Shown here: in pieces, positions 31,099 through 48,689 of the stretch | Numbering within the stretch: the first letter of the stretch is position 1 | Layout of the letters: every line of letters starts with the position of its first letter | From: Chitinophagales bacterium | Lineage (GTDB): Bacteria > Bacteroidota > Bacteroidia > Chitinophagales > UBA10324 | Length of the DNA: 64,000 nt | Reading direction: 5' to 3' | Assembly (NCBI GenBank): GCA_044227805.1 | Contig: JBGAWA010000005.1 | Span: forward strand, 6,818-70,817 | Notes under the pieces: model-generated | What the model saw: the letters and a program-made list of their open reading frames with translations, nothing else | Databases searched by the model: none | What the model was told of the DNA's origin: nothing | Translations under genes and position numbers: made by a program

Positions 31099-31154
31099 TA
31101 TAGTCAGAAACCTGTGAATAGTAGTACATTCGTCATTCACCTTGTAAACATATC

Positions 31155-33002: not shown

Positions 33003-33877
33003 CGAGCGAATCCACACATGAGCGCTGCCTGCTTTGTAATCATTCAAATCTTCGGTTAATGAAACGTTATGCAGCGCAACACCTCGTACAATGCGCCAAC
33101 TGCGGTTTTGTGTTTGCGGGCCGCATTCCCGGCACCGACACCCTGATTCAGCACTATGAAGGCTACGGCAGAAAAAATTACCGGTCACCTGTCACCGTCA
33201 AACGATATGAAGAGTTGCTGACCATTTTTGAAAAGTTCAGAAAGAGCAACAGGATGCTCGATGTCGGTTGCGGCATCGGCTATTTTCTGGAGGTGGCGAA
33301 AGCAAACAGATGGGAAGTGCAGGGTACCGAATACACTGATGAAGCCATTCGTATTTGCCGTGAGAAAGGATTACCCGTGCATCAGGGAGTGCTGCAGGTC
33401 GAAAACTATGAACCCTCCTCTTTTGATGTCATCACTTCTTTTGAAGTAATAGAACACATCAATAATCCGAAAGAAGAAGTCAGCAAGTTTCATTCATTGC
33501 TGCGGAAAGGAGGCATCGTGTATGTTACCACACCTAACTTCCGGTCGCTGTCGAGGTTATTGCTCCGCGAAAAATGGAATGTCATCGCCTATCCTGAACA
33601 TTTATCGTACTATACACAGGCCACATTAAATCGTTTATTTAGCGAAGCAGGATTCTCTTTGTTGACGATCCGGACGACAGGCCTGAGTATAACACGTTTA
33701 AAAACAAGCCTTAGCCTCTCCGGGCAATCCTTCATCTCGGCTACTTCTGATGATGAAAGGATAAGAGAAACGCTGGAATCTAACCGCTTGCTGAAAATGT
33801 TTAAATCAATGACCAATCAATTATTATCCTGGTTCAGTATCGGCGACTCCATTAAAGCTACCTTCATTAAAAACTGA
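32999..33877 (+). CDS. Class I SAM-dependent methyltransferase with N-terminal zinc-ribbon
   Basis: CLLCN...CANCG (two CxxC pairs), then motif I MLDVGCGIGYF and FDVITSFEVIEH. 4-nt overlap with asnB. Confidence 0.8.
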   Translation: MTSESTHERCLLCNHSNLRLMKRYAAQHLVQCANCGFVFAGRIPGTDTLIQHYEGYGRKNYRSPVTVKRYEELLTIFEKFRKSNRMLDVGCGIGYFLEVAKANRWEVQGTEYTDEAIRICREKGLPVHQGVLQVENYEPSSFDVITSFEVIEHINNPKEEVSKFHSLLRKGGIVYVTTPNFRSLSRLLLREKWNVIAYPEHLSYYTQATLNRLFSEAGFSLLTIRTTGLSITRLKTSLSLSGQSFISATSDDERIRETLESNRLLKMFKSMTNQLLSWFSIGDSIKATFIKN

Positions 33878-35091
33878 TGGGGAAAACCATTCTATACATC
33901 TCCTACGATGGCCTCACCGATCCGCTTGGGCAGTCGCAGGTAATTCCATATCTCGCCGGCCTTGCAGCACGGGAACACATCATTCACGTCGTGAGTGCAG
34001 AAAAAAAGGACCGCTTCGCCGGAAGCAGCTTCCTGCGAAGGAGACTGAAAGAAATGAAAATCCATTGGCATCCGGTTTCATATTCCAATAAGTATCCCGG
34101 GCTATCCGCTTATCTCACCTACAGGCGTTTGCGCAGTGAGGCAGTGCAGCTGCTGATCAGCAGTCGCCCACATATTGTTCATTGCCGCAGCTATATTCCC
34201 GCATTGATCGGGCTGGAGTTCAAAAAAGAATCCGCCATCAAGTTCCTCTTTGATATGCGCGGATTCTGGGCCGATGAACGGGTAGAAGGCGGTATTTGGA
34301 ACATGCAGCATTGGTGGTACAGAAAGGCCTATGATTTTTTCAAACGCAAGGAAGCAGCGTTCTTATCGGCGAGTGATGCCATTATCAGCCTTACTGAAAA
34401 TGCACGCATGGATTTGCTGCAACGTCACCTGCCGTCGCTGACGGCGGAAAAGATTACCGTGATTCCCTGCTGTGCTGATCTTGATTTTTTCTCTGAAAAG
34501 AATGCTGCGCCAAACCGGATCGCTCTTCGTAACGAAATCGGTATTGGGGCGGAGGATTATATTCTTTGTTATGCAGGCTCCGTTGGTAGCTGGTACCTGT
34601 TAAAAGAGATGTTGCAGTTTTATAAACACCTGCATGATATACTTCCTGCAGCGAAGTTCCTCATTATTACGCTCGACAATCCCGAACTGATCCGGCAACA
34701 GGCCAGCCAGTTACAGCTGCCACCCGGCTGCCTATTTATCAGGGAGTCGGCCAGGATCATGATGCCCCGTTATCTAAGTATTGCCAATGCCGCTGTCTTC
34801 TTCATAAAAAATTCATTTTCAAAAAAAGCATCTTCGCCCACCAAGATGGGTGAATTTATGAGCATGGGAATTCCTATGGTTTGCAATGCAGGCATCGGTG
34901 ATGTTGATTCGATCATGCAGACAACACAGGCCGGTATCGTATTGTCAGCCCTCGACGATGCGTCCATGAAGGAAGGTGCGGCCCGATTGCTAAACACTAC
35001 TTTCTCCCGGCAGGCCATAATAAGCGCCGCACAGTATTATTCGCTTAAAAAAGGAATTCAGCTCTATCACCAGGTTTATACTTCCTGCTGA
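33877..35091 (+). CDS. Glycosyltransferase family 4 (GT-B)
   Basis: MGKTILYISYDGLTDPLGQSQVIPYL at the N-terminus. C-terminal PTKMGEFMSMGIPMVCNAGIGD. TGATG overlap with the upstream gene. Confidence 0.8.
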   Translation: MGKTILYISYDGLTDPLGQSQVIPYLAGLAAREHIIHVVSAEKKDRFAGSSFLRRRLKEMKIHWHPVSYSNKYPGLSAYLTYRRLRSEAVQLLISSRPHIVHCRSYIPALIGLEFKKESAIKFLFDMRGFWADERVEGGIWNMQHWWYRKAYDFFKRKEAAFLSASDAIISLTENARMDLLQRHLPSLTAEKITVIPCCADLDFFSEKNAAPNRIALRNEIGIGAEDYILCYAGSVGSWYLLKEMLQFYKHLHDILPAAKFLIITLDNPELIRQQASQLQLPPGCLFIRESARIMMPRYLSIANAAVFFIKNSFSKKASSPTKMGEFMSMGIPMVCNAGIGDVDSIMQTTQAGIVLSALDDASMKEGAARLLNTTFSRQAIISAAQYYSLKKGIQLYHQVYTSC

Positions 35092-35097
35092 ACGAAG

Positions 35098-36201
35098 ATG
35101 GCCACCGCTCCGGTTCACATATTATTCATCGGCCCTCACCGGCCTGACAGAAATGCCAGCCAGCGTTTCAGGATAGAGCAGTTCATTCCATACCTCGAAG
35201 CGGCAGCCTTCAAATGTGACTACTCCTGGTTTCTGAATGAAAAAGACGACCGAATTTTTTACCGTCGTGGCAGCATGTTGCAAAAAGGACTGGTTTTTCT
35301 GAAAGCGATCATGATCCGCGCACGCGATGCGATGCAAGCGGGCAGATATGATATCATTTTTGTTCAGCGGGAAGCGCTGATGACCGGTTCGGTATTCTTT
35401 GAAAAACAATTTGCGCGCTCAAAGGCAAAAATGGTTTTTGATTTTGATGATGCTATCTGGCTGGAAGATACCAGCGAAGCCAACCAGTCATTCAGATGGC
35501 TGAAACGACCCGCAAAAACCGCAGAAATAATTGCCATGGCGGATCATGTTATTGCCGGCAACAGTTACCTCGCACGTTATGCACAACAGTATAACATTCA
35601 TGTCACCATCGTTCCGACAGTAGTGGATACCACGCGTTATTCCGACACCGGTACCGCCTATCGCCCCGATAAGCCGGTGGTGATCGGCTGGATGGGAAGC
35701 CACTCCACCATGAAGCATTTTCGCCTGCTGCTGCCTGTGCTGAAAAAACTGAAGGAAAAGTATCAAGAACAAATCATGATTAAAGTGGTTACCGACAAAA
35801 GCAGCAATGCCATCGAGCCCTGGATAGTGCAGGAACCATGGAGCAGTGAACGGGAGCTGGAGCTCCTTCGCAGTTTCGATATTGGAGTGATGCCACTGCC
35901 GGATGATGAGTGGTCGAAAGGAAAATGCGGTTTCAAAGCCATTCAATACATGGCCATGAAAATTCCTGCTGTGGTTGCCGCCGTTGGCGTTAATACGTCT
36001 ATCATCACACAGGGTGTTAATGGATTTATTGCCGCTCATGATGAAGAATGGGAGAAATACCTGTCGATACTGATTGATGATCACGGCACCAGGCAAGCAA
36101 TAGGACTGGCAGCCAGAAAAACAGTGGAACAACATTATTCTGTGCAGTCACAGCTTCCCATATTGGAAGCCCTTTTTCGGTCATTGGCCGGCAAGCCATA
36201 A
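35098..36201 (+). CDS. Glycosyltransferase family 4 (GT-B)
   Basis: VMPLPDDEWSKGKCGFKAIQYMAMKIPAVVAAVGVNTSIITQGVNGFI is a typical GT-B C-terminal motif. 367 aa. Confidence 0.8.
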   Translation: MATAPVHILFIGPHRPDRNASQRFRIEQFIPYLEAAAFKCDYSWFLNEKDDRIFYRRGSMLQKGLVFLKAIMIRARDAMQAGRYDIIFVQREALMTGSVFFEKQFARSKAKMVFDFDDAIWLEDTSEANQSFRWLKRPAKTAEIIAMADHVIAGNSYLARYAQQYNIHVTIVPTVVDTTRYSDTGTAYRPDKPVVIGWMGSHSTMKHFRLLLPVLKKLKEKYQEQIMIKVVTDKSSNAIEPWIVQEPWSSERELELLRSFDIGVMPLPDDEWSKGKCGFKAIQYMAMKIPAVVAAVGVNTSIITQGVNGFIAAHDEEWEKYLSILIDDHGTRQAIGLAARKTVEQHYSVQSQLPILEALFRSLAGKP

Positions 36202-37742: not shown

Positions 37743-38900
37743 CTATACTTTCTGCAGCCGCTCAGCAGCTTTTTCCAATGTTTCATTTTCCTTCGCGAAA
37801 CAAAACCGCAACATCTTCCTGTCAATACCATGATGATAAAAAACCGACGTAGGAATGGCCGCTACTCCTGCTTCCTTTGTCAGACGCACCGCAAAGTCTG
37901 TATCTTTTTCATTGCTGATTACTTTGTAGCTCAACAGCTGAAAGTAACTGCCGGCGGCTGGCTTTGCTTTGAATCTTGACCCTTCCGTCAGTTTCAGAAA
38001 ATAGTTGCGCTTCTCTTCATAGAAGGTACGGAGTCCCAGATAGTGCATGGGATCCTTCATCATCTCAGCAAAGGCATATTGAACAGGTGTATTGGCGGAG
38101 AAAACAATAAACTGATGTGCCTTTCTGAACTCTCTCATCAATTCTGCCGGTGCAAGGCAATAACCCATTTTCCAGCCGGTGTTATGATATGTTTTGCCGA
38201 AGGAGAAAACGACGAAGCTTCTTTCTGCAAGCTTCGGATAACGCATCACGCTCTGGTGTTCCAGGCCATCAAAAATGATGTGCTCATAGACTTCATCACT
38301 CAGGATAATGATGTCGGTATTTTGAGTCAGCTTCTGCAGTTGTTTCATATCCTGCGCCGTCATCACCATACCGCTTGGGTTGTGGGGCGTATTGATGATG
38401 ATCATCTTCGTGCGCTGGTTGATGAGTTTCTTTACGGCGTTCCAGTCAATAACATAGTCAGGTACTTCCAGCTCCACGTAGATGGCAATACCTCCGTTCA
38501 GCTCAACAGATGGCGCATAACAATCATATGCGGGTTCAAAGATGATAACCTCATCACCTTCCTCCACCACTGCGGTGATGGCTGCATAGATGGCTTCGGT
38601 GCCTCCTGCCGTAACGGTCACCTCTGTTTCCGGGTGATAATTCGCGGCATAAAGACTTTCAGCCTTCGCTGCAATAGCTTCGCGAAGCGGCAATATACCC
38701 GGCATAGGCGCGTATTGATTCAGCCCTTTGCGCATGAATTGCTCCACCAGGGAGATCAATCGCGCATCACACATAAAATCAGGAAAGCCCTGCGACAGAT
38801 TGATGGCGCCATGTTCCTGTGCAAGGGCTGACATAATCGTAAAAATAGTAGTGCCGGTTTTGGGCAGTTTTGATTTTACATGTGCAGGATAATCAGGCAT
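37743..38900 (-). CDS. Class I/II PLP-dependent aminotransferase (methionine aminotransferase YbdL-like)
   Basis: 385 aa. NLSQGFPDF at the N-terminus, NPHNPSG, and the PLP-lysine motif SFGKTYHNTGWKMGY. Confidence 0.8.
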   Translation of the reverse strand: MPDYPAHVKSKLPKTGTTIFTIMSALAQEHGAINLSQGFPDFMCDARLISLVEQFMRKGLNQYAPMPGILPLREAIAAKAESLYAANYHPETEVTVTAGGTEAIYAAITAVVEEGDEVIIFEPAYDCYAPSVELNGGIAIYVELEVPDYVIDWNAVKKLINQRTKMIIINTPHNPSGMVMTAQDMKQLQKLTQNTDIIILSDEVYEHIIFDGLEHQSVMRYPKLAERSFVVFSFGKTYHNTGWKMGYCLAPAELMREFRKAHQFIVFSANTPVQYAFAEMMKDPMHYLGLRTFYEEKRNYFLKLTEGSRFKAKPAAGSYFQLLSYKVISNEKDTDFAVRLTKEAGVAAIPTSVFYHHGIDRKMLRFCFAKENETLEKAAERLQKV

Positions 38901-39146
38901 CGTAGTATCTATAGTTTATGAAAAGTTTTATTACATGTACTGCTTTCAAAACAAGCCGATCCGTAAGAGCCATACCGCTGCAATATTGATAATATTTGCC
39001 GCATGCTATAAAAAGATAAGGTTCAGCATGAAAACAATTAAAGCAAGTATGAAAAAATTATGGTGATCAGGTGAGAATTCTCTTTCTTTGCTTTGATCGC
39101 CAACAAGTTTCTGACTGCAAGTTAAATTCAGGAAACGAACTGACCA

Positions 39147-39884
39147 ATGTTTTTTATTATCATCCTGACCACATTGCTGCTCACTTCTCCCGGTTACCTG
39201 ACTGACACTTCTACTGCTATAGATGCCACTGCCGGATATGAATGGTGGGATCAGTGGCTAAAAAAAAATGTGTCCGGTAAAGGCGAGGTGAATTACAAAA
39301 ACATGAAGCCCGAGTTGGCTGCCCTGCAGTCATTCATTGCCGAAATGGGCAGAAAGGTGCCCGCCGCCGAAGCCAGCAGGAATGAACAACTGGCCTACTG
39401 GATCAACCTGTACAATGCCGCTACCATTCAGCTTGTGCTTCAGTCTTACCCGGTTAAAAGTATCCGCGACATCAGCAATGGCAAACCGTGGGACGATGTT
39501 TTTATTACGGCAGGTGCCAGAAAATATTCGCTCAATAATATTGAACATGATATTCTGCGAAAACAATTTGCCGATCCGCGTATCCATTTTGCCATTAACT
39601 GTGCAGCCAAATCATGCCCCAAGCTGCTGAATGCCGCTTTTGACAAGGACCGGCTCGATATGCAACTGAACAGTCTTGCCAAATCATTCGTCAATGACCC
39701 CTCCAAAAATAAAATCACCGCTACACAAATTGATATTTCAGAAATATTCAACTGGTATCGGCAGGACTTCACACAGCAGGGCAGTCTGATAGACTTTCTC
39801 AATACCTGGTCGGCTGTTAGAATATCAGCTTCCGCATCCATCCATTATCTGAACTATGACTGGAGTTTAAACGAATTACCATGA
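39147..39884 (+). CDS. DUF547 domain protein with N-terminal signal/TM segment
   Basis: INLYNAATIQLVL and HFAINCAAKSCPKL are DUF547 hallmarks. Hydrophobic N-terminus MFFIIILTTLLL. Confidence 0.75.
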   Translation: MFFIIILTTLLLTSPGYLTDTSTAIDATAGYEWWDQWLKKNVSGKGEVNYKNMKPELAALQSFIAEMGRKVPAAEASRNEQLAYWINLYNAATIQLVLQSYPVKSIRDISNGKPWDDVFITAGARKYSLNNIEHDILRKQFADPRIHFAINCAAKSCPKLLNAAFDKDRLDMQLNSLAKSFVNDPSKNKITATQIDISEIFNWYRQDFTQQGSLIDFLNTWSAVRISASASIHYLNYDWSLNELP

Positions 39885-40486
39885 AGCAGCACGACAGTTT
39901 ACTGATGATTTTTGTAAAGAACCCTGTGCCGGGAAAAGTGAAAACCCGCCTGGCAAAGACGATGGGTGAAGAAAAAGCGATGGAGATTTACCGGCAATTG
40001 CTCGATCACACCCATAAGACAACACAGAAACTGGCAATGGATAAAATCGTTTTTTATTCAGATGAAATATTGAACGAGGACATTTGGGAAGAAAAAAATT
40101 ATGGCAAGAAGCTGCAGGAAGGAAGTGATCTCGGGAAGCGTATGGCAAATGCGTTCAAGTATGCTTTCAGCAAAGCCTATCGCAAAGCCATTATCATTGG
40201 CAGCGATTGTTTCGATATTACTCCTAAAATTATCAATGAAGCATTCGCCGCTTTGCCGGCCAATAATTTTGTAATTGGTCCTTCTCACGATGGCGGCTAC
40301 TATCTGCTGGGCATGTCAACTTTTTATGCCTCCCTTTTCAAAAACAAAAGATGGAGCTCAGATGAAGTGTTGCATGATACCCTGGTAGATATCCGTAATA
40401 TCAACGGCTCCTATAAATTACTCAAGGAGCTCACCGATATTGACACCGAAGCAGATCTGGAGGCTGTAGGAAAAGGAATTTCCTGA
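39881..40486 (+). CDS. DUF2064/TIGR04282-type glycosyltransferase-like protein (arsenosugar-cluster associated)
   Basis: LLMIFVKNPVPGKVKTRLA at the N-terminus, IIIGSDCFDIT and GPSHDGGYYLLG. ATGA overlap with the DUF547 gene. Confidence 0.75.
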   Translation: MKQHDSLLMIFVKNPVPGKVKTRLAKTMGEEKAMEIYRQLLDHTHKTTQKLAMDKIVFYSDEILNEDIWEEKNYGKKLQEGSDLGKRMANAFKYAFSKAYRKAIIIGSDCFDITPKIINEAFAALPANNFVIGPSHDGGYYLLGMSTFYASLFKNKRWSSDEVLHDTLVDIRNINGSYKLLKELTDIDTEADLEAVGKGIS

Positions 40487-40501
40487 AGACAGAGCAGGAT
40501 A

Positions 40502-40530
40502 GAGCAACACTCCGTGTTACTCACTTTTTT
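40502..40530 (+). terminator. Putative intrinsic terminator
   Basis: GAGCAACAC-TCC-GTGTTACTC is a 9-bp stem with one mismatch, followed by ACTTTTTT. Lies 16 nt after the stop at 40486. Confidence 0.4.
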
Positions 40531-40610
40531 CATTGTTATCGTGCGGAAGGAGTCCGCTGAAATATCTAATTCATTCCATTGATGATGAATAGCAACAATT
40601 CTTATTTCTG

Positions 40611-41429
40611 ATGACTTTACCGGAACAGCTCCAGGAGACAGTTGATTTTCTTCACGCGAAAAATATCAGTGTGCCCGCAGCCGGAATCATTTTGGGAACA
40701 GGCCTGGGTAATCTTGCCACGCGCATTGTGAAGGAAGTGGAAATCGACTACAGGGACATTCCGCATTTTCCACTTTCTACGGTGGAATATCACAAGGGAA
40801 AAATGATCTATGGTATGCTGGGCGGCAAAAAAGTGGTGGCCCTGCAGGGACGATTTCATTTGTATGAAGACTATACCATCCAGCAAATCACTTTCCCTGT
40901 CAGGATTTTGAAGCTACTGGGTATTCAGTACCTGTTGATCTCCAATGCCGCAGGAGGATTGAACCCGTTGATCAAGAAAGGATCGCTCATGGCGATTGAT
41001 GATCACATAAATATGCAACCGTTTAATCCGCTGAGCGGAAAAAATTATGAAGAGCTCGGCCCGCGTTTTCCGGATATGAGTTGTCCATACGATCCCGGCC
41101 TGTTGGAAAAAATGGAACAGTGTGCCGAACAACTGCAAATCACATTACACAAAGGTGTTTACGTTGCTGTGAACGGACCCAATCTCGAAACGAGGGCTGA
41201 ATACCGATTCCTGAGAATGATCGGTGCTGATGCGGTAGGCATGTCTACGGTACCGGAAGTAATTGTTGCCAATCATATGTCGCTGCCCGTTGCTGCCGTT
41301 TCTGTTATTACCGATGAATGCGATCCTGATAACTTAAAACCGGTTAACATTGCAGAAATAATTGAAACGGCTGGCAAAGCAGAAGTGCAGCTGACAGCAC
41401 TTTTCGAAAACCTGGTACGCACACTTTGA
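40611..41429 (+). CDS. Purine nucleoside phosphorylase, trimeric PNP/MTAP family
   Basis: ILGTGLG, ALQGRFHLYE, SNAAGGLN, GPNLETRAEYRF and VGMSTVPEV motifs. 272 aa. Confidence 0.9.
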   Translation: MTLPEQLQETVDFLHAKNISVPAAGIILGTGLGNLATRIVKEVEIDYRDIPHFPLSTVEYHKGKMIYGMLGGKKVVALQGRFHLYEDYTIQQITFPVRILKLLGIQYLLISNAAGGLNPLIKKGSLMAIDDHINMQPFNPLSGKNYEELGPRFPDMSCPYDPGLLEKMEQCAEQLQITLHKGVYVAVNGPNLETRAEYRFLRMIGADAVGMSTVPEVIVANHMSLPVAAVSVITDECDPDNLKPVNIAEIIETAGKAEVQLTALFENLVRTL

Positions 41430-41516
41430 AATCGTAAGGGATAGGCCGGGCTGACAGCTTACTATTTGAAAAGCGAAAATATTACAGAAAATAAATTATA
41501 TGACTAAATCCAACAG

Positions 41517-41849
41517 ATGAAAACCTACTACAATCCTGAAGACCTGAAAAAATTTGGAAATATCGCCGAGTTCGACAAGCCACTGGCAGACCAGTTTTTC
41601 CGCTGGTATGGCGATGTGTTTAGTGAGGGCGCACTTACCGCCCGCGAAAAATCGCTGATCGCTCTCGCTGTAGCGCATGCCATTCAATGCCCTTACTGCA
41701 TTGAAGCCTATACCGAAGACACACTCACAAAAGGATACACCGAAGAACAGATGATGGAAGCCGTGCATGTTGCCGCTGCCATCCGCAGCGGCGCAAGTCT
41801 TGTGCATGCCACCCAGATGATGAATAAGGCAAAGGAGTTAACAATGTGA
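41517..41849 (+). CDS. AhpD/carboxymuconolactone decarboxylase-fold peroxidase-like protein (TIGR04169-type, arsenosugar-cluster associated)
   Basis: 110 aa. CPYCIEAY CxxC motif in an AhpD-like context. Immediately upstream of the ArsS-like gene. Confidence 0.75.
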   Translation: MKTYYNPEDLKKFGNIAEFDKPLADQFFRWYGDVFSEGALTAREKSLIALAVAHAIQCPYCIEAYTEDTLTKGYTEEQMMEAVHVAAAIRSGASLVHATQMMNKAKELTM

Positions 41850-41919
41850 TCGTTTCAACTCCCGACATTTTAATCCGCTATTGATCAAACATTCATCGCA
41901 CGCCATTCAAAAATTCCAC

Positions 41920-42969
41920 ATGAAGTCACTACATGCACAGCATCATGAACTCTCTGACAGCGGCAGACAGCTGCAGTTGTTGAACGATGTTGTGCACACA
42001 TCCGCCATCACGTCCTTCCGTCAAAAACTGGAAACATTGGGATTCTATCCGCTGAAGCCCTCTGCCACTGAAATTTTGCAGGTGAATATTGGCAAGATGT
42101 GCAACCAGACCTGCAAACACTGCCACGTAGATGCCGGTCCGGACCGGCAGGAAATCATGACAAGGCAAACGATGGAGCAATGCCTGCAGGTGTTGCAATC
42201 TTCATCCATACCGGTAGTTGATATCACCGGTGGCGCTCCCGAGCTGAATCCCAACTTCCGCTGGTTTGTTGAAGAGTGCGCCAAACTGGGGGTGAAAGTG
42301 ATTGACCGCTGTAACCTCACCATCATTCTTTCCAACAAGAAATATCATGACCTCCCTGAATTTTTTGCACGGCATAAAGTGGAACTGGTGAGCTCACTGC
42401 CTTTCTACCATGCCGACAGAACGGACAGGCAACGTGGAGAAGGGGTGTTTGATGCCTCTGTAAAAGCATTGAAAATGCTGAATGATCACGGTTATGGTAA
42501 GGAAAGAAGCGGACTCATCCTGAACCTGGTGTATAACCCTGCAGGTGCCTTTCTGCCTGCAGGCCAACAAATGCTGGAATCGCAATTCAAAAAAGTGTTG
42601 CATGATGAATATGCAATCACCTTCAACAACTTGTTTACGATTACCAATATGCCGATCAGCCGATTTCTTGATTACCTTATTACAAGCGGAAACTATGAAT
42701 CATATATGGAAAAATTACTGGCGGCTTTTAATCCGGCAACAATCAGCGGATTGATGTGCCGCAATACCATTTCTGTTGGTTGGGATGGCTACCTGTATGA
42801 CTGTGATTTTAACCAGATGCTCGACTTGAAAACAGGCAGCGATAATGCTATGCACATCAGTACTTTTGACAGCATCGCGGCACAAAATCGCGAAATAATA
42901 ATATCACAACATTGCTATGGATGCACCGCCGGCGCCGGATCGAGCTGTGGCGGGGAAGTGGTGACATAA
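41920..42969 (+). CDS. arsS: Radical SAM/Cys-rich-domain protein, ArsS-like (arsenosugar biosynthesis)
   Basis: CNQTCKHC radical SAM CX3CX2C box and C-terminal Cys-rich tail CYGCTAGAGSSCGG. The ORF begins at a TTG at 41881, and the ATG at 41920 is likely. Confidence 0.8.
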   Translation: MKSLHAQHHELSDSGRQLQLLNDVVHTSAITSFRQKLETLGFYPLKPSATEILQVNIGKMCNQTCKHCHVDAGPDRQEIMTRQTMEQCLQVLQSSSIPVVDITGGAPELNPNFRWFVEECAKLGVKVIDRCNLTIILSNKKYHDLPEFFARHKVELVSSLPFYHADRTDRQRGEGVFDASVKALKMLNDHGYGKERSGLILNLVYNPAGAFLPAGQQMLESQFKKVLHDEYAITFNNLFTITNMPISRFLDYLITSGNYESYMEKLLAAFNPATISGLMCRNTISVGWDGYLYDCDFNQMLDLKTGSDNAMHISTFDSIAAQNREIIISQHCYGCTAGAGSSCGGEVVT

Positions 42970-43152
42970 GCCAGTATTTTTAAATGGAAAAAGGCGGGTG
43001 GACTGCAAAATGCAGGTCTAACGTTACTTCCGTTCTTCTCACATGCAGGGCACTGTCCAGTCAGGCCTTCCGCTTTCCAGGGAAGAATTCCCCATTTCCG
43101 GTGTTCCTGTTCAATTATATAAATTTACCACCACCAATAATTATACAATTGC

Positions 43153-44148
43153 ATGATGTCAACTACCGAGGTAACCGAACTGAATGAAAAAATCCGAAAG
43201 CAAAGCACGTTTATCGATTCCTTAAAAAATGAAATGGCCAAAGCCATTATCGGACAACAATACATGGTGGACAGGCTCATACTTTCCCTGCTCTCCAATG
43301 GGCATATATTGCTGGAAGGCGTGCCCGGGCTTGCCAAAACGCTGGCGATAAAAACAATGGCCGCTGCCATTCGGGCCGGCTTCAGTCGTATACAATTTAC
43401 ACCCGACCTGTTACCCGCCGACTTGTTGGGCACTATGATCTATAACCAGCAAAAAAATGAATTCACCGTAAAGAAGGGACCGGTTTTTTCCAACCTGATA
43501 CTGGCGGATGAAATCAACCGTGCCTCTGCTAAAGTGCAAAGCGCTTTACTGCAGGCCATGCAGGAACGACAGGTAACTATCGGGGATCAGACCTATAAAC
43601 TTGAGGAACCGTTCCTGGTTCTGGCAACACAAAATCCATTGGAACAGGAAGGAACCTATCCGCTGCCCGAAGCACAAGTGGACAGGTTTATGATGAAAGT
43701 AATTATCACTTACCCGGAAAGGGAGGACGAAAGGCAAATTATCCGTCAACAAATTGCTGATGCGCCAACGTTTATACAACCGGTCATCACACCGCAAGAT
43801 ATCTTAAGTGCACGGCACCTGGTACGCGACATTTACCTCGATGAAAAAATTGAACAATACATTCTCGACATTGTATTGGCTACCCGTAACCCGGCTGAAT
43901 TTAAATTGGAAAAACTCAAAGGCCTGTTGCGGTATGGCAGCTCACCGCGCGGAAGCATCAGCCTGGCAATCGCCGCAAAATCAATAGCCTTTATACAACA
44001 CCGCGGCTTTGTGATACCAGATGATATCAAAAACGTTTGCCTGGATGTGTTGCGTCATAGAATCGGTATCACTTATGAAGCGGAAGCGGAAAACGTGACC
44101 ACAGATGAAATCATCCGCGAAATCATCCGGAAAGTGGAAGTGCCTTAG
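43153..44148 (+). CDS. MoxR family AAA+ ATPase
   Basis: Walker A LLEGVPGLAKT and Walker B ILADEINRA. 331 aa. First gene of the Bat-type operon. Confidence 0.9.
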   Translation: MMSTTEVTELNEKIRKQSTFIDSLKNEMAKAIIGQQYMVDRLILSLLSNGHILLEGVPGLAKTLAIKTMAAAIRAGFSRIQFTPDLLPADLLGTMIYNQQKNEFTVKKGPVFSNLILADEINRASAKVQSALLQAMQERQVTIGDQTYKLEEPFLVLATQNPLEQEGTYPLPEAQVDRFMMKVIITYPEREDERQIIRQQIADAPTFIQPVITPQDILSARHLVRDIYLDEKIEQYILDIVLATRNPAEFKLEKLKGLLRYGSSPRGSISLAIAAKSIAFIQHRGFVIPDDIKNVCLDVLRHRIGITYEAEAENVTTDEIIREIIRKVEVP

Positions 44149-44196
44149 TGATGAAAAAATGCAGCCTTAACTTTGTAACCCTACCAAACAGCAGAC

Positions 44197-45072
44197 GTGG
44201 AAACCGCTGAGCTTATTAAGAAAGTCCGGAAGCTGGAGATCAAAACAAAAGGCATGGTAAGCCAGCTTTTTTCAGGCGAATACCACAGCGCTTTTAAAGG
44301 ACGTGGCATTTCTTTCAGCGAAGTGCGTGAATATGAATTGGGTGATGAAATCCGGTCTATCGACTGGAATGTTACTGCCCGCATGAATCACCCCTATGTT
44401 AAAGTGTTTGAAGAAGAACGCGAACTGGCGGTAATGCTGATGGTGGATGTAAGTCAATCAGCGATGTTCGGCACACAGCAACAATCCAAGTATGACCTGA
44501 TCGCTGAGGTGAGCGCCTTGCTGGCCTATTCCGCCATTCGCAATAACGACAAAGTGGGCATGATTCTTTTCAGCGATAAAATCGAAAAATTCATTCCTCC
44601 CCAAAAAGGCAGTTCACACATTTTGCGGATCATCAGGGAGCTGCTGGACGTTTCACCGGCTTCCCCAAAAACTAACATCGCCTCGGCGTTGCAGTATCTC
44701 AACAACGTGATAAAAAAAAGATGCGTAGTGTTCCTGCTGTCGGATTTTATCACTTCCGGGTACGAACCCATGCTGATGATCACAGCACGAAGGCATGATG
44801 TGGTGGGAATTCATGTATTCGATCGCCGTGAAACGGAAATACCCGATATCGGTTTGCTGCAGGTGCAGGATGCGGAAACCGGCAAGATCCTATGCATTGA
44901 TACCGGCAATGGTACCCTACGGAAAAATTACGCACAAAAATACCAGCACCATCTTCTGCAGTTGACAGTCGTGTTGCAGCGATGCGGCATTGACTCCATC
45001 AGCATTCAGACAGGCAATCCATACATACGGGCGCTGATGTTATTGTTCGAAAGAAGAAGCAAAAAAGTTTAA
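44197..45072 (+). CDS. DUF58 domain protein
   Basis: GEYHSAFKGRGISFSEVREYELGDEIRSIDWNVTAR is the DUF58 hallmark. GTG start in the ORF track. Confidence 0.85.
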   Translation: METAELIKKVRKLEIKTKGMVSQLFSGEYHSAFKGRGISFSEVREYELGDEIRSIDWNVTARMNHPYVKVFEEERELAVMLMVDVSQSAMFGTQQQSKYDLIAEVSALLAYSAIRNNDKVGMILFSDKIEKFIPPQKGSSHILRIIRELLDVSPASPKTNIASALQYLNNVIKKRCVVFLLSDFITSGYEPMLMITARRHDVVGIHVFDRRETEIPDIGLLQVQDAETGKILCIDTGNGTLRKNYAQKYQHHLLQLTVVLQRCGIDSISIQTGNPYIRALMLLFERRSKKV

Positions 45073-45101
45073 TCCAGATCAATCAGCAGGACACGAGGAG
45101 T

Positions 45102-46055
45102 ATGACCAGAAAATGTAAGTGGCTTACCGTAGTGATGATCATGGCGCCGCTGTTGTTCCTGCACGCTCAATCCATCCGCATCACTGCCACACTCGATTCC
45201 ACCAATTACCGGGTAGGTGACTGGATCCGCATTCAACTATCCGCCGAACATCCTTTCGAAACAAAAATGCGCTGGAACCGGCCGGTGGTGATAGATGCAC
45301 CCGGTTTTGAAAAGCTGGCGGAATCTGCTATTGACTCTATTGAGCATAATGATTTTCTCACCGAAAGGAAGATGATCACCGTCACTACATTTGACACCGG
45401 CGTATGGCAGATTCCGCCGATTACCTGCTACTACGAGCAAAAGGGCGTTATAGACAGTGCTTCATCAAATCCACTGTCAGTTTATATTGCGGCTGTTGCC
45501 ATCGACACTGCTGCCGCTGCCCGCCCGCTGAAAGGGATATTTACTATTGCGGCGACCGGTCAAAGTATAGCATGGTACCTTTTGCCATTCCTTTTATTAA
45601 TCTTGATTGCATTGGCCGCCTGGAACTATTTCCATCAAAAAACGAAATTAAATAAACACCAATCACAGCCTGAGGCGGATACACGGTTACCCCATGAAAA
45701 AGCTTATGACCTCCTTATGTCGCTGGAATTAGAAAAACCATGGGAACACGATCTGGTAAAGGAATACTATGTGCAAGTGACGCAAATTTTAAGGGAATAC
45801 ATTGAAACGGGGCTGGAACTGCCGGCACTCGAAAACACCACGCAGGAACTGCTTGTTTCCCTGCGAAAAAAATCACTGGATGAAAAATTAATCCTCCAGC
45901 TAAGTGATGACCTGAACCTGGCTGATCTCGTGAAGTTTGCCAAAGTACAACCGGCAACAGCTTCACACCTGCGAATTTTACATACGGTGAAAGACTTCAT
46001 TCAAAAAACAACACCTGTCACCCACTTACCGGCACCGGAGGGCCAGGCTGAATGA
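45102..46055 (+). CDS. Bat-operon membrane protein (BatD-like N-terminal domain plus TM plus DUF4381-like C-terminal region)
   Basis: Signal peptide, one central TM (WYLLPFLLLILIALAAW), then a helical C-terminal part. Its position between DUF58 and BatA is typical of Bacteroidota Bat operons. Domain naming is tentative. Confidence 0.6.
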   Translation: MTRKCKWLTVVMIMAPLLFLHAQSIRITATLDSTNYRVGDWIRIQLSAEHPFETKMRWNRPVVIDAPGFEKLAESAIDSIEHNDFLTERKMITVTTFDTGVWQIPPITCYYEQKGVIDSASSNPLSVYIAAVAIDTAAAARPLKGIFTIAATGQSIAWYLLPFLLLILIALAAWNYFHQKTKLNKHQSQPEADTRLPHEKAYDLLMSLELEKPWEHDLVKEYYVQVTQILREYIETGLELPALENTTQELLVSLRKKSLDEKLILQLSDDLNLADLVKFAKVQPATASHLRILHTVKDFIQKTTPVTHLPAPEGQAE

Positions 46056-47032
46056 TTCACTTCGCGAATCCAGAATGGTTTTGGTTGCTGAATAGCATTC
46101 CGTTGCTGATTATTTGGTATATCCTGCGCCACCATACACTGCAGCAATCATTACGTCTCTCTACTATTTCTTTTTTCGATGCGCCCCGTTCAGTCGTCAT
46201 TTATCTGCGTCACAGTCTCTTTGTTTTGCGGTTGTTGGCTATTGCAGCATTGATTATCGCCTTGGCGAGGCCACAGGCTGTACTCTCAAAAACCAGCATT
46301 GCCAGTGAAGGGCTCGATATTGTATTGGCGATGGATATATCAGGGAGTATGCTGGCCCGTGATTTTGTTCCCAGCAGGTTAGAAGCTGCCAAAAAGGTGG
46401 TCGTTGAATTTATTGAAAAGAGACCCAATGATCGCATCGGAGTAGTATTCTTTGCAGGGGAAGCATACACCGGTTGCCCGACCACTATCGATCACCATGC
46501 CTTACAGCAGATTATCACAAATGTGAAAACAGGATCGATAGAAGATGGAACCGCTCTTGGACTCGGCCTTGGCACTGCAGCCAGCCGGCTGACAGAGAGT
46601 AAGTCCGCGACAAAGATCATTATCCTCGTCAGCGATGGTGAGAACAATGCCGGTGCAGTGAAACCCCTGGAAGCCGCGCAACTCGTGAAATCATTAGGCA
46701 TTCATACTTATTGCATTGGTATCTTTTCGCCGGCTGCTGAAAAAAAGCCGGTTACCGCCAATGACAGTGCCTATGCTGCTATGGGCGGTCCTACTGCTGA
46801 AACCACCTTGTTGCAGATAGCCGAAATAACAGGCGGTCACTATTTTCGAGCCGGTAATGAAAAAACACTGCAGGACATCTACCGGCAAATTGATGTGATG
46901 GAAAAAACGAAATTAGATGTCGCTGCTTTTCACCGGTATGAAGAACGTTTTTTCCTGCTGGCCATCATCGCAGCACTGGCACTGCTGGCAGAAATATTTC
47001 TTCGTTATACCCTATTCCGCACAACGCCCTGA
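46052..47032 (+). CDS. batA: VWA domain protein BatA
   Basis: N-terminal TM helices followed by a VWA MIDAS motif (DIVLAMDISGSM). ATGA overlap with the upstream gene. Confidence 0.85.
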   Translation: MIHFANPEWFWLLNSIPLLIIWYILRHHTLQQSLRLSTISFFDAPRSVVIYLRHSLFVLRLLAIAALIIALARPQAVLSKTSIASEGLDIVLAMDISGSMLARDFVPSRLEAAKKVVVEFIEKRPNDRIGVVFFAGEAYTGCPTTIDHHALQQIITNVKTGSIEDGTALGLGLGTAASRLTESKSATKIIILVSDGENNAGAVKPLEAAQLVKSLGIHTYCIGIFSPAAEKKPVTANDSAYAAMGGPTAETTLLQIAEITGGHYFRAGNEKTLQDIYRQIDVMEKTKLDVAAFHRYEERFFLLAIIAALALLAEIFLRYTLFRTTP

Positions 47033-48054
47033 TGCAGTTAGAACATCCATATTATCTTTTGGGTTGGCTGTTGCTGCCAGCGGTGGTGTTACTGTTTATA
47101 CATTACCGCAACTGGCGCAAGAAAGGGTTGAGACAATTTGGGGACTGGCCATTAGTCGCGCAGTTGATCGCAGCCAACAGTATTTCCCGGCCTGTTATTA
47201 AATTCTGCTTGCTGCTCACCGCATTCACACTCATCATCTTCGCATTGGCGAATCTTCAATATGGAACAGCATCGCGCAACATTCGCCATGAAGGTATTGA
47301 CCTTGCCATCCTGCTTGATGTCTCCAACAGTATGCTCGCTGCAGATGTGCCCCCCAACCGGCTGGAACTGGCCAAAAAGGCTGCCGCGCAATTGATAGCG
47401 GAAATGCCCGATGCACGGATTGCCTTCATCACCTTTGCCGCTATTCCGGTAATGCAAACACCGCTGACCATTGATCACCGCGCCGCACAATTACTGATCA
47501 GTGCTATCAGCGCTGAAGATGTGCCCGAACAGGGAAGTGATATCGGTGCTGCCTTGCTGGAAGGCATTCGGTCGCTTCCCGAAAATCAAAATCACTATCG
47601 TGCCATCGTTCTCATCAGCGACGGAGAAGACCAGGAAGGAGCACTGAAACAGGCCATTGACGCCGCAAGGGAAAACCAGGTGGTGGTCTGCACCGCAGGG
47701 TTGGGAAGTGAAAATGGCACCACCATTCCCATGAGTGAAGATGGAATCATCACTCAGAAAAAAGATCAGGAGGGTAATGTGATCGTCACCAAATTCAATC
47801 CTTCAACATTAAAAGCCATTGCCGGAAGTAATCATGGGATTTTTGTGAAGATGCAAACCGGCCACCGGGAAGCGGTGCGCAGCATTGTACAACACCTTGA
47901 CGCCCTCAATAAAAATCAGTTGGATGAACAGTTGCTGGTACAATATGAGTCGAGGTTTCAGTGGTTCCTATGCGCTGCATTGCTGTTGCTGACGATGGAA
48001 TTGCTGATAAGCAATCGAAAAATGGTTGGGTGGAGAAATCGAAAAGCATCATGA
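47032..48054 (+). CDS. batB: VWA domain protein BatB
   Basis: TM helices followed by a VWA MIDAS motif (DLAILLDVSNSM) and a C-terminal TM. TGATG overlap with batA. Confidence 0.85.
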   Translation: MQLEHPYYLLGWLLLPAVVLLFIHYRNWRKKGLRQFGDWPLVAQLIAANSISRPVIKFCLLLTAFTLIIFALANLQYGTASRNIRHEGIDLAILLDVSNSMLAADVPPNRLELAKKAAAQLIAEMPDARIAFITFAAIPVMQTPLTIDHRAAQLLISAISAEDVPEQGSDIGAALLEGIRSLPENQNHYRAIVLISDGEDQEGALKQAIDAARENQVVVCTAGLGSENGTTIPMSEDGIITQKKDQEGNVIVTKFNPSTLKAIAGSNHGIFVKMQTGHREAVRSIVQHLDALNKNQLDEQLLVQYESRFQWFLCAALLLLTMELLISNRKMVGWRNRKAS

Positions 48055-48689
48055 AAGACAAATTCATTCTCTATGCTGTCTGCTTGCTGCCGCTGCTGAT
48101 GATGACAGGGTGCTATTCAGCAATCGCACAAACACCGGAAGAACTGATGGTGAAAGGAAACCTTGCCTACGAAGCAAAAAACTTCGGTGAAGCGCAGCGC
48201 TTCTATGAAACAGCATTGTCACAATCCGGCGTGCTGCGTTTTCCGGAATGGCAATTTAACCTGGGCAATGCACTTTATCAGCAGCAGAAATTTACGGAAG
48301 CTTCTGTGCAGTTCAACCAGCTGGCCGCTGCGCACGTGTCCACCGCTCTAAAAGCTGCATCCTATTTTAATGCAGGCAATTGTTATCTCCAGCAAAAAAA
48401 TTATGCCGCCGCCCTTGCTGCCTACAAAAACACTTTGCGTCTTAACCCGCTGGATGAGGATGCACGGTACAATCTCACTTTCGTAACTGCCTTGATGGCA
48501 AAGAATGCACCTGCCGGCAAAGTGGCGGCCTCTATGTCAAAAGAAATTTATCAGCCGCCGCCGGAAGCCAACCTTACGCCGGAAGAACAACGCCGCCTGC
48601 TCGACCAACTCAATGCCGCTGAAAATCAAACCCTGCAGCAACGACCGAAAAAGCTGCAGCAACAAAAGAAGAATCTGAAAGACTGGTAG
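48051..48689 (+). CDS. batC: TPR-repeat protein BatC
   Basis: The ATG at 48051 overlaps the batB stop. Lipoprotein-like signal (LLMMTGC), TPR repeats (GNLAYEAKNFGEAQRFYETAL; GNCYLQQKNYAAALAAYKNTLRLNP) and a Gln/Lys-rich tail. Confidence 0.8.
   Translation: MKDKFILYAVCLLPLLMMTGCYSAIAQTPEELMVKGNLAYEAKNFGEAQRFYETALSQSGVLRFPEWQFNLGNALYQQQKFTEASVQFNQLAAAHVSTALKAASYFNAGNCYLQQKNYAAALAAYKNTLRLNPLDEDARYNLTFVTALMAKNAPAGKVAASMSKEIYQPPPEANLTPEEQRRLLDQLNAAENQTLQQRPKKLQQQKKNLKDW

What the first reader, a model, noticed from the sequence alone, without database searches (positions are those of the whole stretch)
40611..41429. Embedded PNP/MTAP-family phosphorylase with Asp at the human-PNP Asn243 position: candidate adenine-removal step
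The proposed arsenosugar route needs adenine removed from 5'-deoxy-5'-dimethylarsinoyl-adenosine, a close chemical analogue of 5'-methylthioadenosine. The phosphorylase inside this cluster aligns with trimeric PNPs (VGMSTVPEVIVA...). Where human PNP has LITN (Asn243, which dictates 6-oxopurine preference), this protein has VITDECD. The Asp is residue 235, encoded at 41313-41315. MTAP has T-D-x-D at this site, and the N243D change in human PNP is known to shift specificity toward adenosine. Phosphorolysis would give a 5-arsinoyl-ribose-1-phosphate. That is a plausible activated donor for the adjacent DUF2064 transferase-like protein. This would fill two unassigned steps. It could equally be an ordinary adenosine-accepting salvage PNP that happens to lie here.
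Basis: partly seen in the sequence, partly recalled or inferred. Interest (0 to 1): 0.7.

Follow-up and report, generated by a model that had tools for sequence, protein, structure and literature searches.

The report
Phosphorylase embedded in arsenosugar gene cluster
A purine nucleoside phosphorylase gene sits inside an arsenic-sugar biosynthesis operon, and comparison across hundreds of genomes makes it, together with an unrelated MTAP-like cousin in Proteobacteria, the best candidate for the still-unidentified enzyme that removes adenine during arsenosugar synthesis.

Summary
ORF 40611-41429 (+) encodes a 272-aa trimeric-type purine nucleoside phosphorylase (PNP), and Asp235 aligns with human Asn243. 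The operon-like row is DUF547, TIGR04282, PNP, an AhpD-like gene and ArsS.

The Asp is not a special mark. All but one of about 100 close Bacteroidota PNPs have it, including 54 with no arsenosugar gene nearby. The clade also has Ile/Leu/Val in place of human His257, which binds the 5'-OH, and Leu in place of Phe200. Both changes resemble S-methyl-5'-thioadenosine phosphorylase (MTAP).

The linkage is real but lineage-bound. In 88 non-redundant Bacteroidota ArsS loci the PNP is a neighbour in 33, about as often as ArsM (31). The window's other flanking genes are neighbours in 1-3. The PNP usually lies within 200 bp of TIGR04282, in many gene orders. In 64 ArsS loci from other phyla no PNP of this type was found near ArsS.

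One of those loci had an MTAP-like gene directly after ArsS. Of that protein's 80 nearest relatives, mainly from Proteobacteria, 57 sit among ArsS, TIGR04282, TIGR04283 or ArsM-like genes.

Two non-orthologous phosphorylases in the same kind of cluster support phosphorolysis of dimethylarsinoyl-adenosine. HpnH/HpnG in hopanoid synthesis is the precedent. No enzyme has been assayed.

The parts
39147..39884 (+). DUF547 protein, first gene of the co-directional row; its end overlaps the TIGR04282 start by 4 bp
   Evidence: Pfam PF04784 97 bits. It is a recurrent ArsS neighbour, in 20 of 88 Bacteroidota and 7 of 64 other loci.
39881..40486 (+). TIGR04282 / DUF2064 protein, CofC-like; NCBI names it 'arsenosugar biosynthesis glycosyltransferase'
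   Evidence: TIGR04282 212.6 bits (cut-off 134). It also matches CofC guanylyltransferase models TIGR03552 (40.6 bits) and PF01983. PDB 3cgx 'putative nucleotide-diphospho-sugar transferase', E = 3.5e-26. It is the PNP's immediate neighbour (gap under 200 bp) in 31 of 42 loci that hold both.
40611..41429 (+). Trimeric-type purine nucleoside phosphorylase, 272 aa; the finding
   Evidence: The identical protein in the same gene order is on 12 metagenome contigs.
41313..41315 (+). Codon GAT for Asp235, equivalent to human PNP Asn243
41349..41351 (+). Codon ATT for Ile247, equivalent to human PNP His257 (the 5'-OH ligand)
   Evidence: BLASTP aligns NIAEI with NHEEV. HMMER aligns the same stretch without gaps to 'SHEEV' of 8swt. 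Ile, Leu or Val is present here in all close relatives.
41184..41189 (+). Codons for Leu192 and Glu193, equivalent to human Phe200 and Glu201
   Evidence: The Glu that reads 6-oxopurines is kept; Phe is replaced by Leu.
41517..41849 (+). AhpD/CMD-family 'arsenosugar biosynthesis-associated peroxidase-like protein'
   Evidence: TIGR04169 175.7 bits (cut-off 120). It lies next to ArsS in 80 of 88 Bacteroidota loci.
41923..42969 (+). ArsS, the radical SAM enzyme that adenosylates dimethylarsenite; likely start ATG 41923 (349 aa)
   Evidence: TIGR04167 454.3 bits (cut-off 300), plus DUF3641 and Radical_SAM. It is called as 349 aa on four independent contigs. Function is from PMC13598754.

Best explanation
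The gene encodes the Bacteroidota form of the trimeric purine nucleoside phosphorylase. Its base and 5' sub-sites have moved toward MTAP: Asp for Asn243, Ile for His257, Leu for Phe200, with Glu201 kept. Such an enzyme should accept adenine nucleosides that lack a 5'-OH.

In this operon its most likely job follows ArsS. ArsS joins the 5'-deoxyadenosyl group of SAM to dimethylarsenite and gives 5'-deoxy-5'-dimethylarsinoyl-adenosine (DDMAA). The phosphorylase would then cleave DDMAA with phosphate into adenine and 5-deoxy-5-dimethylarsinoyl-alpha-D-ribose-1-phosphate. This sugar phosphate would pass to the adjacent CofC-like TIGR04282 protein, probably to be joined to a nucleotide. Where a TIGR04283 GT2 transferase is present, it would then form the beta-riboside.

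Shown here: family membership, the residue substitutions, the gene order, and the comparative linkage in two phyla. Inferred: the substrate, the phosphorolytic product and the hand-over to TIGR04282.

The enzyme is probably not dedicated. The same ortholog serves lineages without ArsS, so in Bacteroidota a general adenosine / 5'-deoxyadenosine-type phosphorylase appears to have been drawn into the cluster. In Proteobacteria, a distinct MTAP-like subfamily is what lies in these clusters.
For: 1. Linkage in Bacteroidota. In 88 non-redundant ArsS loci the PNP is a neighbour in 33. For comparison, ArsM is a neighbour in 31, TIGR04283 in 26 and TIGR04282 in 50. The window's other flanking genes serve as synteny controls: MoxR in 3 and Met aminotransferase in 1.

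2. Persistence through rearrangement.
- 49 non-redundant loci hold PNP and ArsS, in about 35 gene orders.
- In several the PNP lies between two pathway genes, as in L024: AhpD-ArsS-ArsM(NF038099)-PNP-TIGR04282-TIGR04283-FAD oxidoreductase.
- The median PNP-TIGR04282 gap is 51 bp, and they share a strand in 35 of 42 loci.
- The PNP tree needs at least 9 gains or losses of linkage.

3. Independent recruitment.
- An MTAP-like gene follows ArsS directly in L192 (Rhodospirillales).
- Of its 80 nearest relatives (52-100% identity; alpha-, beta- and gamma-Proteobacteria, Desulfobacterales), 57 have cluster genes within 8 kb: TIGR04282 in 48, TIGR04283 in 44, ArsS in 15, ArsM-like in 16. Members were validated above NCBIfam cut-offs.
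- Ten of the eleven members scored fall below every MTAP equivalog cut-off; L264 passes only TIGR01694 (289.5 against 274.85). All keep the MTAP catalytic residues.

4. Active site. Asp235 and Ile247 are shown. The human double mutant E201Q:N243D uses adenosine-type substrates (PMC2799393). His257 binds O5' in human PNP, and MTAP's preference for 5'-deoxy and 5'-substituted nucleosides is attributed to a hydrophobic site without H-bond partners (PMC5147791).

5. Precedent. HpnH, an adenosylating radical SAM enzyme, is followed by HpnG, a PNP homologue. hpnG knockouts accumulate adenosylhopane (PMC13459092).

6. The step is open. ArsS makes DDMAA (PMC13598754), and only a hypothetical 'adenosyl nucleosidase' has been proposed for adenine removal (PMC10456119). 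Four literature searches found no paper linking PNP or MTAP to arsenosugar synthesis.

7. Operon-like layout in the window. All genes are on one strand, with gaps of 124, 87 and 73 bp and a 4-bp overlap.
Against: - No biochemistry exists for any member.
- The PNP's signature residues are identical in 54 relatives with no cluster gene nearby, mostly Bacteroidales and Lentimicrobiaceae. They are therefore not an adaptation to arsenic.
- 55 of 88 Bacteroidota ArsS loci lack the PNP within the DNA held for each locus.
- All 64 ArsS loci from other phyla lack a PNP of the window's type nearby, and only one of them has an MTAP-like gene next to ArsS.
- A cyanobacterium, the group where arsenosugar synthesis by ArsS was demonstrated, has only arsM-arsS.
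- Replacing His257 with Ile makes the 5' pocket apolar, whereas the dimethylarsinoyl oxide is polar.
- The window lacks ArsM and TIGR04283 anywhere in its 64 kb.
- I could not establish whether these genomes carry a second PNP.
- The 'arsenosugar' names of TIGR04282 and TIGR04283 come from NCBI's family models; I found no experimental evidence for them.
Confidence: 0.55

Rival explanations
1. It is an ordinary purine-salvage PNP. It is the lineage's housekeeping enzyme, which accepts adenosine as well as inosine and guanosine. Its position next to ArsS is inherited gene order without functional meaning.
For: - It passes the 'inosine and guanosine-specific' equivalog TIGR01700 and keeps Glu201.
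- The same ortholog with the same site residues occurs in 54 loci without any cluster gene.
- The tree follows taxonomy and does not show a dedicated paralogue.
- Most Bacteroidota ArsS loci (55 of 88) lack it nearby.
Against: - The window's true flanking genes lose their linkage at the same divergence (MoxR 3 of 88, Met aminotransferase 1 of 88), while the PNP keeps it in 33 of 88.
- No other housekeeping-type family is enriched near ArsS.
- The gene stays inside the cluster through about 35 gene orders, often between two pathway genes.
- In ArsS-less lineages its neighbours are unrelated genes with no conserved salvage context.
- Proteobacteria show a parallel association with a different member of the family.
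Confidence: 0.2
2. It is a clean-up enzyme for SAM by-products. The phosphorylase removes 5'-deoxyadenosine, from abortive SAM cleavage by ArsS, or methylthioadenosine. These inhibit radical SAM enzymes. It would not act on the pathway intermediate.
For: The apolar residue at the His257 position and the Asp at 243 fit 5'-deoxyadenosine or MTA at least as well as DDMAA (PMC5147791). The gene lies two genes upstream of a radical SAM gene. A methionine aminotransferase gene (585 bits on NF006569, the enzyme type of the last step of methionine salvage) lies just upstream on the other strand.
Against: - The tightest linkage is to the transferase genes, not to ArsS. The median PNP-TIGR04282 gap is 51 bp, against 686 bp to ArsS.
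- 48 of 80 MTAP-like loci have TIGR04282 but only 15 have ArsS within 8 kb.
- The productive ArsS reaction consumes the adenosyl group and releases no 5'-deoxyadenosine (PMC13598754).
- The aminotransferase is a neighbour in only 1 of 88 Bacteroidota ArsS loci and in a few of the PNP-centred loci.
Confidence: 0.17
3. It serves arsenate handling. PNP can use arsenate in place of phosphate, and with thiols this yields arsenite. The enzyme could then feed As(III) to ArsM and ArsS.
For: PNP-dependent arsenate reduction has been seen in vitro with mammalian enzyme (PMC12608789). Thiol and redox genes (AhpD-like, rhodanese, FAD disulfide oxidoreductase) recur in the clusters.
Against: The same review says it is unknown whether this reduction occurs in vivo. 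It would not explain the adjacency to TIGR04282, the MTAP-type replacement in Proteobacteria, or the changes at the base and 5' sub-sites. Any PNP would do.
Confidence: 0.03

Closest known systems
Trimeric (low-molecular-mass) purine nucleoside phosphorylase, PunA / PNP-I type (human PNP; PDB 4lna from structural genomics; 4m1e from Planctomyces limnophilus)
   Same: Full-length homology: 45% identity to human PNP, and E = 3e-91 to 4lna. It scores above the curated HMM cut-offs. The phosphate site (His61, Arg81, His83), the ribose site (Tyr85, Met211) and Glu193 (human Glu201) are conserved.
   Different: Asn243 is Asp, His257 is Ile and Phe200 is Leu. It is embedded in an ArsS operon. I found no substrate data for any enzyme with these substitutions; the one paper found that cites 4m1e uses it only as a modelling template.
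S-methyl-5'-thioadenosine phosphorylase (MTAP)
   Same: Same superfamily. It has Asp at the position that reads adenine and an apolar residue where PNP has the 5'-OH ligand. MTAP's substrate MTA is the thio analogue of DDMAA. An MTAP-like subfamily lies in the equivalent clusters, mainly in Proteobacteria.
   Different: The window protein scores 93.5 bits against a cut-off of 274.85. It has Glu where MTAP has Ser178, and its motif is T-D-E-C-D, not T-D-x-D. It is not an MTAP.
HpnH / HpnG pair of hopanoid side-chain synthesis
   Same: The logic is the same. A radical SAM enzyme transfers the whole 5'-deoxyadenosyl group to a substrate, then a PNP-superfamily enzyme encoded nearby removes the adenine (PMC13459092). 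ArsS and the PNP give weak hits to the HpnH and HpnG models (35 and 24 bits).
   Different: They are different subfamilies: HpnG scores 24 bits against a cut-off of 187. The acceptor is arsenic rather than a terpene carbon. A phosphorylated HpnG product has also never been observed.
Aminofutalosine synthase MqnE followed by MTA nucleosidase in the modified futalosine pathway (from my own knowledge of the menaquinone literature, not checked here)
   Same: It is a second case where an adenosylating radical SAM step is followed by purine removal by a PNP_UDP_1-superfamily enzyme that is also the cell's general MTA enzyme.
   Different: That enzyme is a hydrolase of the MtnN type, not a phosphorylase, and its gene is not clustered with the pathway.

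Membership tests
Trimeric PNP (NCBIfam NF006054 / TIGR01697 / TIGR01700) | Whole-protein HMM score above the curated cut-off | tested here: met
   351.5 against 218, 301.7 against 197.1, and 305.6 against 293.35
Trimeric PNP | Phosphate- and ribose-site residues (human His64, Arg84, His86, Tyr88, Asn115, Met219, Ser220) | tested here: met
   All are conserved in the window protein and in 26 cluster-linked relatives. Ser33 is Thr.
Trimeric PNP | 6-oxopurine-reading pair Glu201 / Asn243 | tested here: not met
   Glu is kept (Glu193) but Asn243 is Asp235. This fails the 'inosine/guanosine-specific' description, not membership of the family.
Trimeric PNP | His257 hydrogen bond to the 5'-OH | tested here: not met
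   Ile247. It is Ile, Leu or Val in all close relatives.
Trimeric PNP | Homotrimeric assembly | not testable with these tools
   Inferred only from close similarity to solved PNP homologues (4lna, E = 3.4e-91). Phe159, which in human PNP comes from the neighbouring subunit, is conserved.
MTAP (TIGR01694 and related equivalogs) | HMM score above the cut-off | tested here: not met
   93.5 against 274.85. The other MTAP models score lower still.
MTAP | Thr219-Asp220-x-Asp222 motif with Ser178 | tested here: not met
   The window has T-D-E-C-D, and Glu at the Ser178 position.
HpnG hopanoid-associated phosphorylase (TIGR03468) | HMM score above the cut-off | tested here: not met
   24 bits against 187.1.
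Arsenosugar (ArsS) gene cluster component | Recurrent co-location with ArsS, TIGR04282, TIGR04283 or ArsM beyond what shared gene order gives | tested here: met
   33 of 88 Bacteroidota ArsS loci against 1-3 of 88 for control neighbours, in about 35 gene orders. This holds only within Bacteroidota; the count is 0 of 64 in other phyla.
Arsenosugar (ArsS) gene cluster component | Catalytic activity on 5'-deoxy-5'-dimethylarsinoyl-adenosine | not testable with these tools
   This needs an enzyme assay. No published data were found.

The most novel reading that the evidence does not exclude
The whole second half of arsenosugar synthesis may be encoded here as a three-step relay:
1. A PNP- or MTAP-type phosphorylase converts dimethylarsinoyl-adenosine to the alpha-ribose-1-phosphate.
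2. The CofC-like TIGR04282 protein couples this to a nucleotide, giving an NDP-activated 5-deoxy-5-arsinoyl-pentose, a kind of sugar nucleotide not known so far.
3. The GT2 enzyme TIGR04283, assumed to invert as GT2 enzymes usually do, delivers it to glycerol or a lipid. That restores the beta configuration found in natural arsenosugars.

The phosphorylase slot would have been filled twice independently, by a PNP in Bacteroidota and by an MTAP-like subfamily in Proteobacteria.
Probability: 0.25. Interest if true: 0.8.

Novelty: new variant of a known kind. Interest (0 to 1): 0.65.

Why it matters
Arsenosugars are the main arsenic compounds in seaweeds, and arsenic from seafood is a major part of human dietary exposure. 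Only the first committed steps, ArsM and ArsS, have enzymes assigned. How adenine is removed and how the riboside bond is made remain open.

This analysis gives specific, clonable candidates in two phyla. It also gives a stereochemically coherent order of steps and a clear knockout phenotype to look for: accumulation of dimethylarsinoyl-adenosine, as adenosylhopane accumulates without HpnG.

It also flags a Bacteroidota-wide PNP clade whose annotation as 'inosine and guanosine-specific' is probably wrong. And it identifies an MTAP-like subfamily that has no NCBIfam model of its own.

Tried and rejected
- The large-database protein search with ArsS returned only relatives of 65% identity or more, so it gave nothing across phyla. 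I switched to the 50%-representative library and an alignment-seeded locus scan.
- The sigma-70 promoter and terminator scan of 38800-43300 gave counts at shuffle level. It says nothing about operon boundaries.
- Searching papers for the PDB codes of the nearest solved homologues, in the hope of substrate data, found only one use of 4m1e as a modelling template.
- Four literature searches for PNP, MTAP or a nucleosidase in arsenosugar synthesis found only a hypothetical 'adenosyl nucleosidase'.
- I looked for ArsM, TIGR04283, the FAD oxidoreductase and the rhodanese in the 64-kb window and found none.
- I looked for an informative 'native' context of the PNP in ArsS-less lineages. The neighbours are unrelated genes, such as an RNase Y-like gene, a Nudix-like fusion and a small conserved protein, identified by eye only.
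- I rejected Asp235 as a marker of an arsenic-specific enzyme.
- I rejected the arsenate-reductase reading as the main role.
- I did not run structure prediction. The models cannot be inspected residue by residue here, and the fold is already fixed by the E = 3e-91 match to 4lna.
Full report
**What is at the coordinates**

The ORF at 40611-41429 (+) encodes 272 residues. It scores above the curated cut-offs of three PNP models: NF006054 (351.5 against 218), TIGR01700 (305.6 against 293.35) and TIGR01697 (301.7 against 197.1). It is far below the MTAP model TIGR01694 (93.5 against 274.85).

Its best solved relatives are structural-genomics PNPs: 4lna (E = 3e-91), 4m1e (from Planctomyces limnophilus, PMC10900210) and 8swt. 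Mammalian PNPs follow at about 1e-64 to 1e-66, and human MTAP at 8e-16.

The gene lies in a co-directional row:
- DUF547, 39147-39884
- TIGR04282/DUF2064, 39881-40486
- PNP, 40611-41429
- TIGR04169 AhpD-like, 41517-41849
- ArsS, 41923-42969

The gaps are 124, 87 and 73 bp, and the first two genes overlap by 4 bp. The identical protein in the same gene order is found on 12 contigs from other metagenomes. A MoxR/BatA-type operon follows downstream. A methionine aminotransferase gene lies upstream on the other strand.

**The residue claim**

I checked my human PNP sequence against PDB 1pf7_E, and it is identical over 289 residues. I did the same for human MTAP against 1cb0_A.

BLASTP of the window protein against human PNP gives 45% identity. 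It aligns Asp235 (GAT, 41313-41315) with Asn243, with no gap from the VGMSTVPEVIVA motif onward.

Human His257, which binds the 5'-OH, corresponds to Ile247 (NIAEI against NHEEV), and Phe200 corresponds to Leu192. Glu201 is kept. The His257 assignment is backed by the gap-free HMMER alignment to 8swt, which has SHEEV at that place.

The literature attributes MTAP's preference for 5'-deoxy and 5'-substituted nucleosides to an apolar site without hydrogen-bond partners, and notes the His257-O5' contact in PNP (PMC5147791). The human double mutant E201Q:N243D accepts adenosine-type substrates (PMC2799393). The enzyme is therefore predicted to take adenine nucleosides that lack a 5'-OH. This is an inference.

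**Is the Asp special?**

No. I collected 100 non-redundant close relatives (58-72% identity) from ArsS-centred and PNP-centred scans of one genome per species. All but one have Asp, and all have Ile, Leu or Val at the His257 position.

The 54 relatives with no arsenosugar gene in up to 10 kb of flank have the same residues. They are mostly Bacteroidales and Lentimicrobiaceae. The three best PDB homologues also have Asp.

A neighbour-joining tree groups the sequences largely by lineage. The cluster-linked and unlinked genes are one ortholog family. In ArsS-less lineages the neighbours of the PNP are unrelated genes.

**Is the linkage to ArsS real?**

Within Bacteroidota, yes. Counts for 88 non-redundant ArsS loci:

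| Neighbour of ArsS | Loci (of 88) |
|---|---|
| AhpD-like | 80 |
| TIGR04282 | 50 |
| PNP | 33 |
| ArsM | 31 |
| TIGR04283 | 26 |
| DUF547 | 20 |
| MoxR (window flank, control) | 3 |
| Met aminotransferase (window flank, control) | 1 |

The two flanking genes control for inherited gene order, and they lose their linkage. An unbiased clustering of all ORFs within 6 kb of ArsS found no other housekeeping-type family enriched.

Across all loci, 49 hold both PNP and ArsS, in about 35 gene orders. The PNP often lies between two pathway genes. In L024 the order is AhpD-ArsS-ArsM(NF038099, 561 bits)-PNP-TIGR04282-TIGR04283-FAD oxidoreductase.

The closest partner is TIGR04282. The median gap is 51 bp, the gap is under 200 bp in 31 of 42 loci, and the strand is shared in 35 of 42. 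The tree requires at least nine changes of linkage state.

**Across phyla**

I seeded a scan with an alignment of diverse ArsS representatives. It returned loci from Omnitrophota, Binatia, Nitrospirota, Acidobacteriota, Planctomycetota, Verrucomicrobiota, Gemmatimonadota, several classes of Proteobacteria and others.

In the 64 non-Bacteroidota ArsS loci, none carried a PNP of the window's type. One Terriglobia locus (L195) has a human-type PNP homologue about 9 kb away on the other strand. A cyanobacterial locus (Calothrix) has only an ArsM-like methyltransferase gene and arsS.

One locus, from a Rhodospirillales MAG (L192), has an MTAP-like gene starting 24 bp after the ArsS reading frame. 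I used that protein as a query.
- Of its 80 nearest relatives (52-100% identity; alpha-, beta- and gamma-Proteobacteria and a Desulfobacterales MAG), 57 have cluster genes within 8 kb.
- TIGR04282 is present in 48, TIGR04283 in 44, ArsS in 15 and ArsM-like methyltransferases in 16, again in many gene orders.
- Spot checks confirmed these neighbours above NCBIfam cut-offs. In L260, ArsS scores 451.6, TIGR04283 270.7 and TIGR04282 210.2.
- The subfamily keeps every MTAP catalytic residue, with Phe177 to Leu, Ser178 to Gly and Thr93 to Ser.
- Ten of the eleven members scored fall just below the TIGR01694 cut-off; one (L264) passes it. All are far below the cut-offs of the other, more specific MTAP models, so the subfamily has no model of its own.
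- Phe177 of MTAP and Phe200 of PNP occupy the same alignment position, and both cluster-linked clades carry Leu there.

**Interpretation**

Two non-orthologous members of one enzyme family have entered the same kind of cluster, each most closely tied to the TIGR04282/TIGR04283 pair. That is the classic comparative-genomics sign of a required catalytic step.

ArsS makes 5'-deoxy-5'-dimethylarsinoyl-adenosine (PMC13598754). The adenine-removing enzyme has only been postulated (PMC10456119). The precedent is direct: HpnH adenosylates diploptene, and the PNP homologue HpnG then removes adenine, with adenosylhopane accumulating in hpnG mutants (PMC13459092).

From established enzymology, phosphorolysis by this family inverts the beta-nucleoside to the alpha-1-phosphate. 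TIGR04282 resembles the guanylyltransferase CofC and a 'nucleotide-diphospho-sugar transferase' structure, 3cgx. GT2 enzymes are generally inverting. A relay of phosphorylase, then nucleotidyl transfer, then inverting transfer would regenerate the beta-riboside of natural arsenosugars. These downstream steps are inference.

**Caveats**

- There is no biochemistry for any member.
- The Bacteroidota enzyme looks like a general enzyme that has been co-located with the cluster, not a dedicated paralogue.
- Most ArsS loci in most phyla have no phosphorylase nearby, so a housekeeping MTAP or nucleosidase would have to serve there.
- The apolar Ile247 is not an obvious partner for a polar arsinoyl oxide.
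- The window lacks ArsM and TIGR04283.
- I could not count PNP-family paralogues per genome.

**Rivals**

- An ordinary salvage PNP held in place by inherited gene order (0.20).
- Clearance of 5'-deoxyadenosine or MTA (0.17). The tighter linkage to the transferases than to ArsS argues against this.
- Arsenate reduction by arsenolysis (0.03; PMC12608789).

**Verdict**

The protein is a variant of a known enzyme kind with a probable new pathway role. Interest is 0.65, because a long-open step in arsenosugar synthesis becomes directly testable with named candidates.

Noticed in passing
L235-L314 (for example L260:8001-8840, L241:8001-8846): A proteobacterial MTAP-like subfamily scores about 259-290 bits on TIGR01694 (cut-off 274.85) and far below the cut-offs of the other, more specific MTAP models. 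It has Phe177 to Leu, Ser178 to Gly and Thr93 to Ser. It has no NCBIfam model of its own, and 57 of 80 members lie among TIGR04283, TIGR04282, ArsS or ArsM-like genes.
   Followed up: yes
window 41184-41186; MTAP-like loci: The position of human PNP Phe200, which is the same alignment position as human MTAP Phe177, is Leu in both the Bacteroidota PNP clade and the proteobacterial MTAP-like clade. This may be a convergent change near the 5' sub-site.
   Followed up: partly
L245:10157-11083 (-), and similar ORFs in nine other MTAP-like loci, including L251, L265, L283, L310, L312 and L314: Some MTAP-like/TIGR04283/TIGR04282 clusters lack ArsS. Instead they carry a divergent 308-aa radical SAM protein on the other strand. 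It scores 96 bits on the Rv1681-family model and 70 bits on the N-terminal half of ArsS, with no match to the ArsS C-terminal half.
   Followed up: partly
window 1-64000: The window holds no ArsM, TIGR04283, FAD disulfide oxidoreductase or rhodanese, which complete the cluster in many relatives. The cluster here is a reduced five-gene version.
   Followed up: yes
window 37743-38900 (-): A methionine aminotransferase gene (NF006569, 585 bits), the enzyme type of the last step of methionine salvage, lies divergently upstream of the cluster. This adjacency is seen only in the nearest relatives (L081).
   Followed up: partly
L110, L112, L115, L153: Weak DUF547-like ORFs (26-29% identity) adjoin the PNP in four Bacteroidales loci that have no ArsS. 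This hints at a PNP-DUF547 link independent of arsenic.
   Followed up: no
L060:13690-14436 (-): One Bacteroidota ArsS locus has a different PNP (45% identity) with Asn at the 243 position but still Ile at the 257 position. It lies 2.6 kb from ArsS on the opposite strand, so a second PNP type exists in the phylum.
   Followed up: partly
window 41881-42969: The mechanical ORF list starts ArsS at TTG 41881. Four independent gene calls and the family model favour ATG 41923 (349 aa). The C-terminal CTAGAGSSCGG motif contains only cysteine, although NCBI's name for the family allows a selenoprotein form.
   Followed up: partly
L024:14205-15659, L229:10971-11480, L229:13786-14682 and many other loci: A FAD-dependent pyridine-nucleotide disulfide oxidoreductase, a rhodanese (NF045521) and a protein with a weak match to an ornithine-lipid hydroxylase model (OlsE, 97 bits, below its cut-off) recur in the clusters. 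They are candidates for arsenic redox handling and possibly for lipid-linked products.
   Followed up: no
L319:269-2427: In the cyanobacterium Calothrix rhizosoleniae, ArsS is paired only with an ArsM-like methyltransferase gene. No transferase or phosphorylase is within 10 kb.
   Followed up: yes
window 30001-36201 and 43153-48689: The cluster is flanked by a polysaccharide-type gene set (sulfotransferase, asparagine synthase, methyltransferase, two GT4 glycosyltransferases) and by a MoxR/DUF58/BatA-type operon. Neither is conserved next to ArsS elsewhere.
   Followed up: partly
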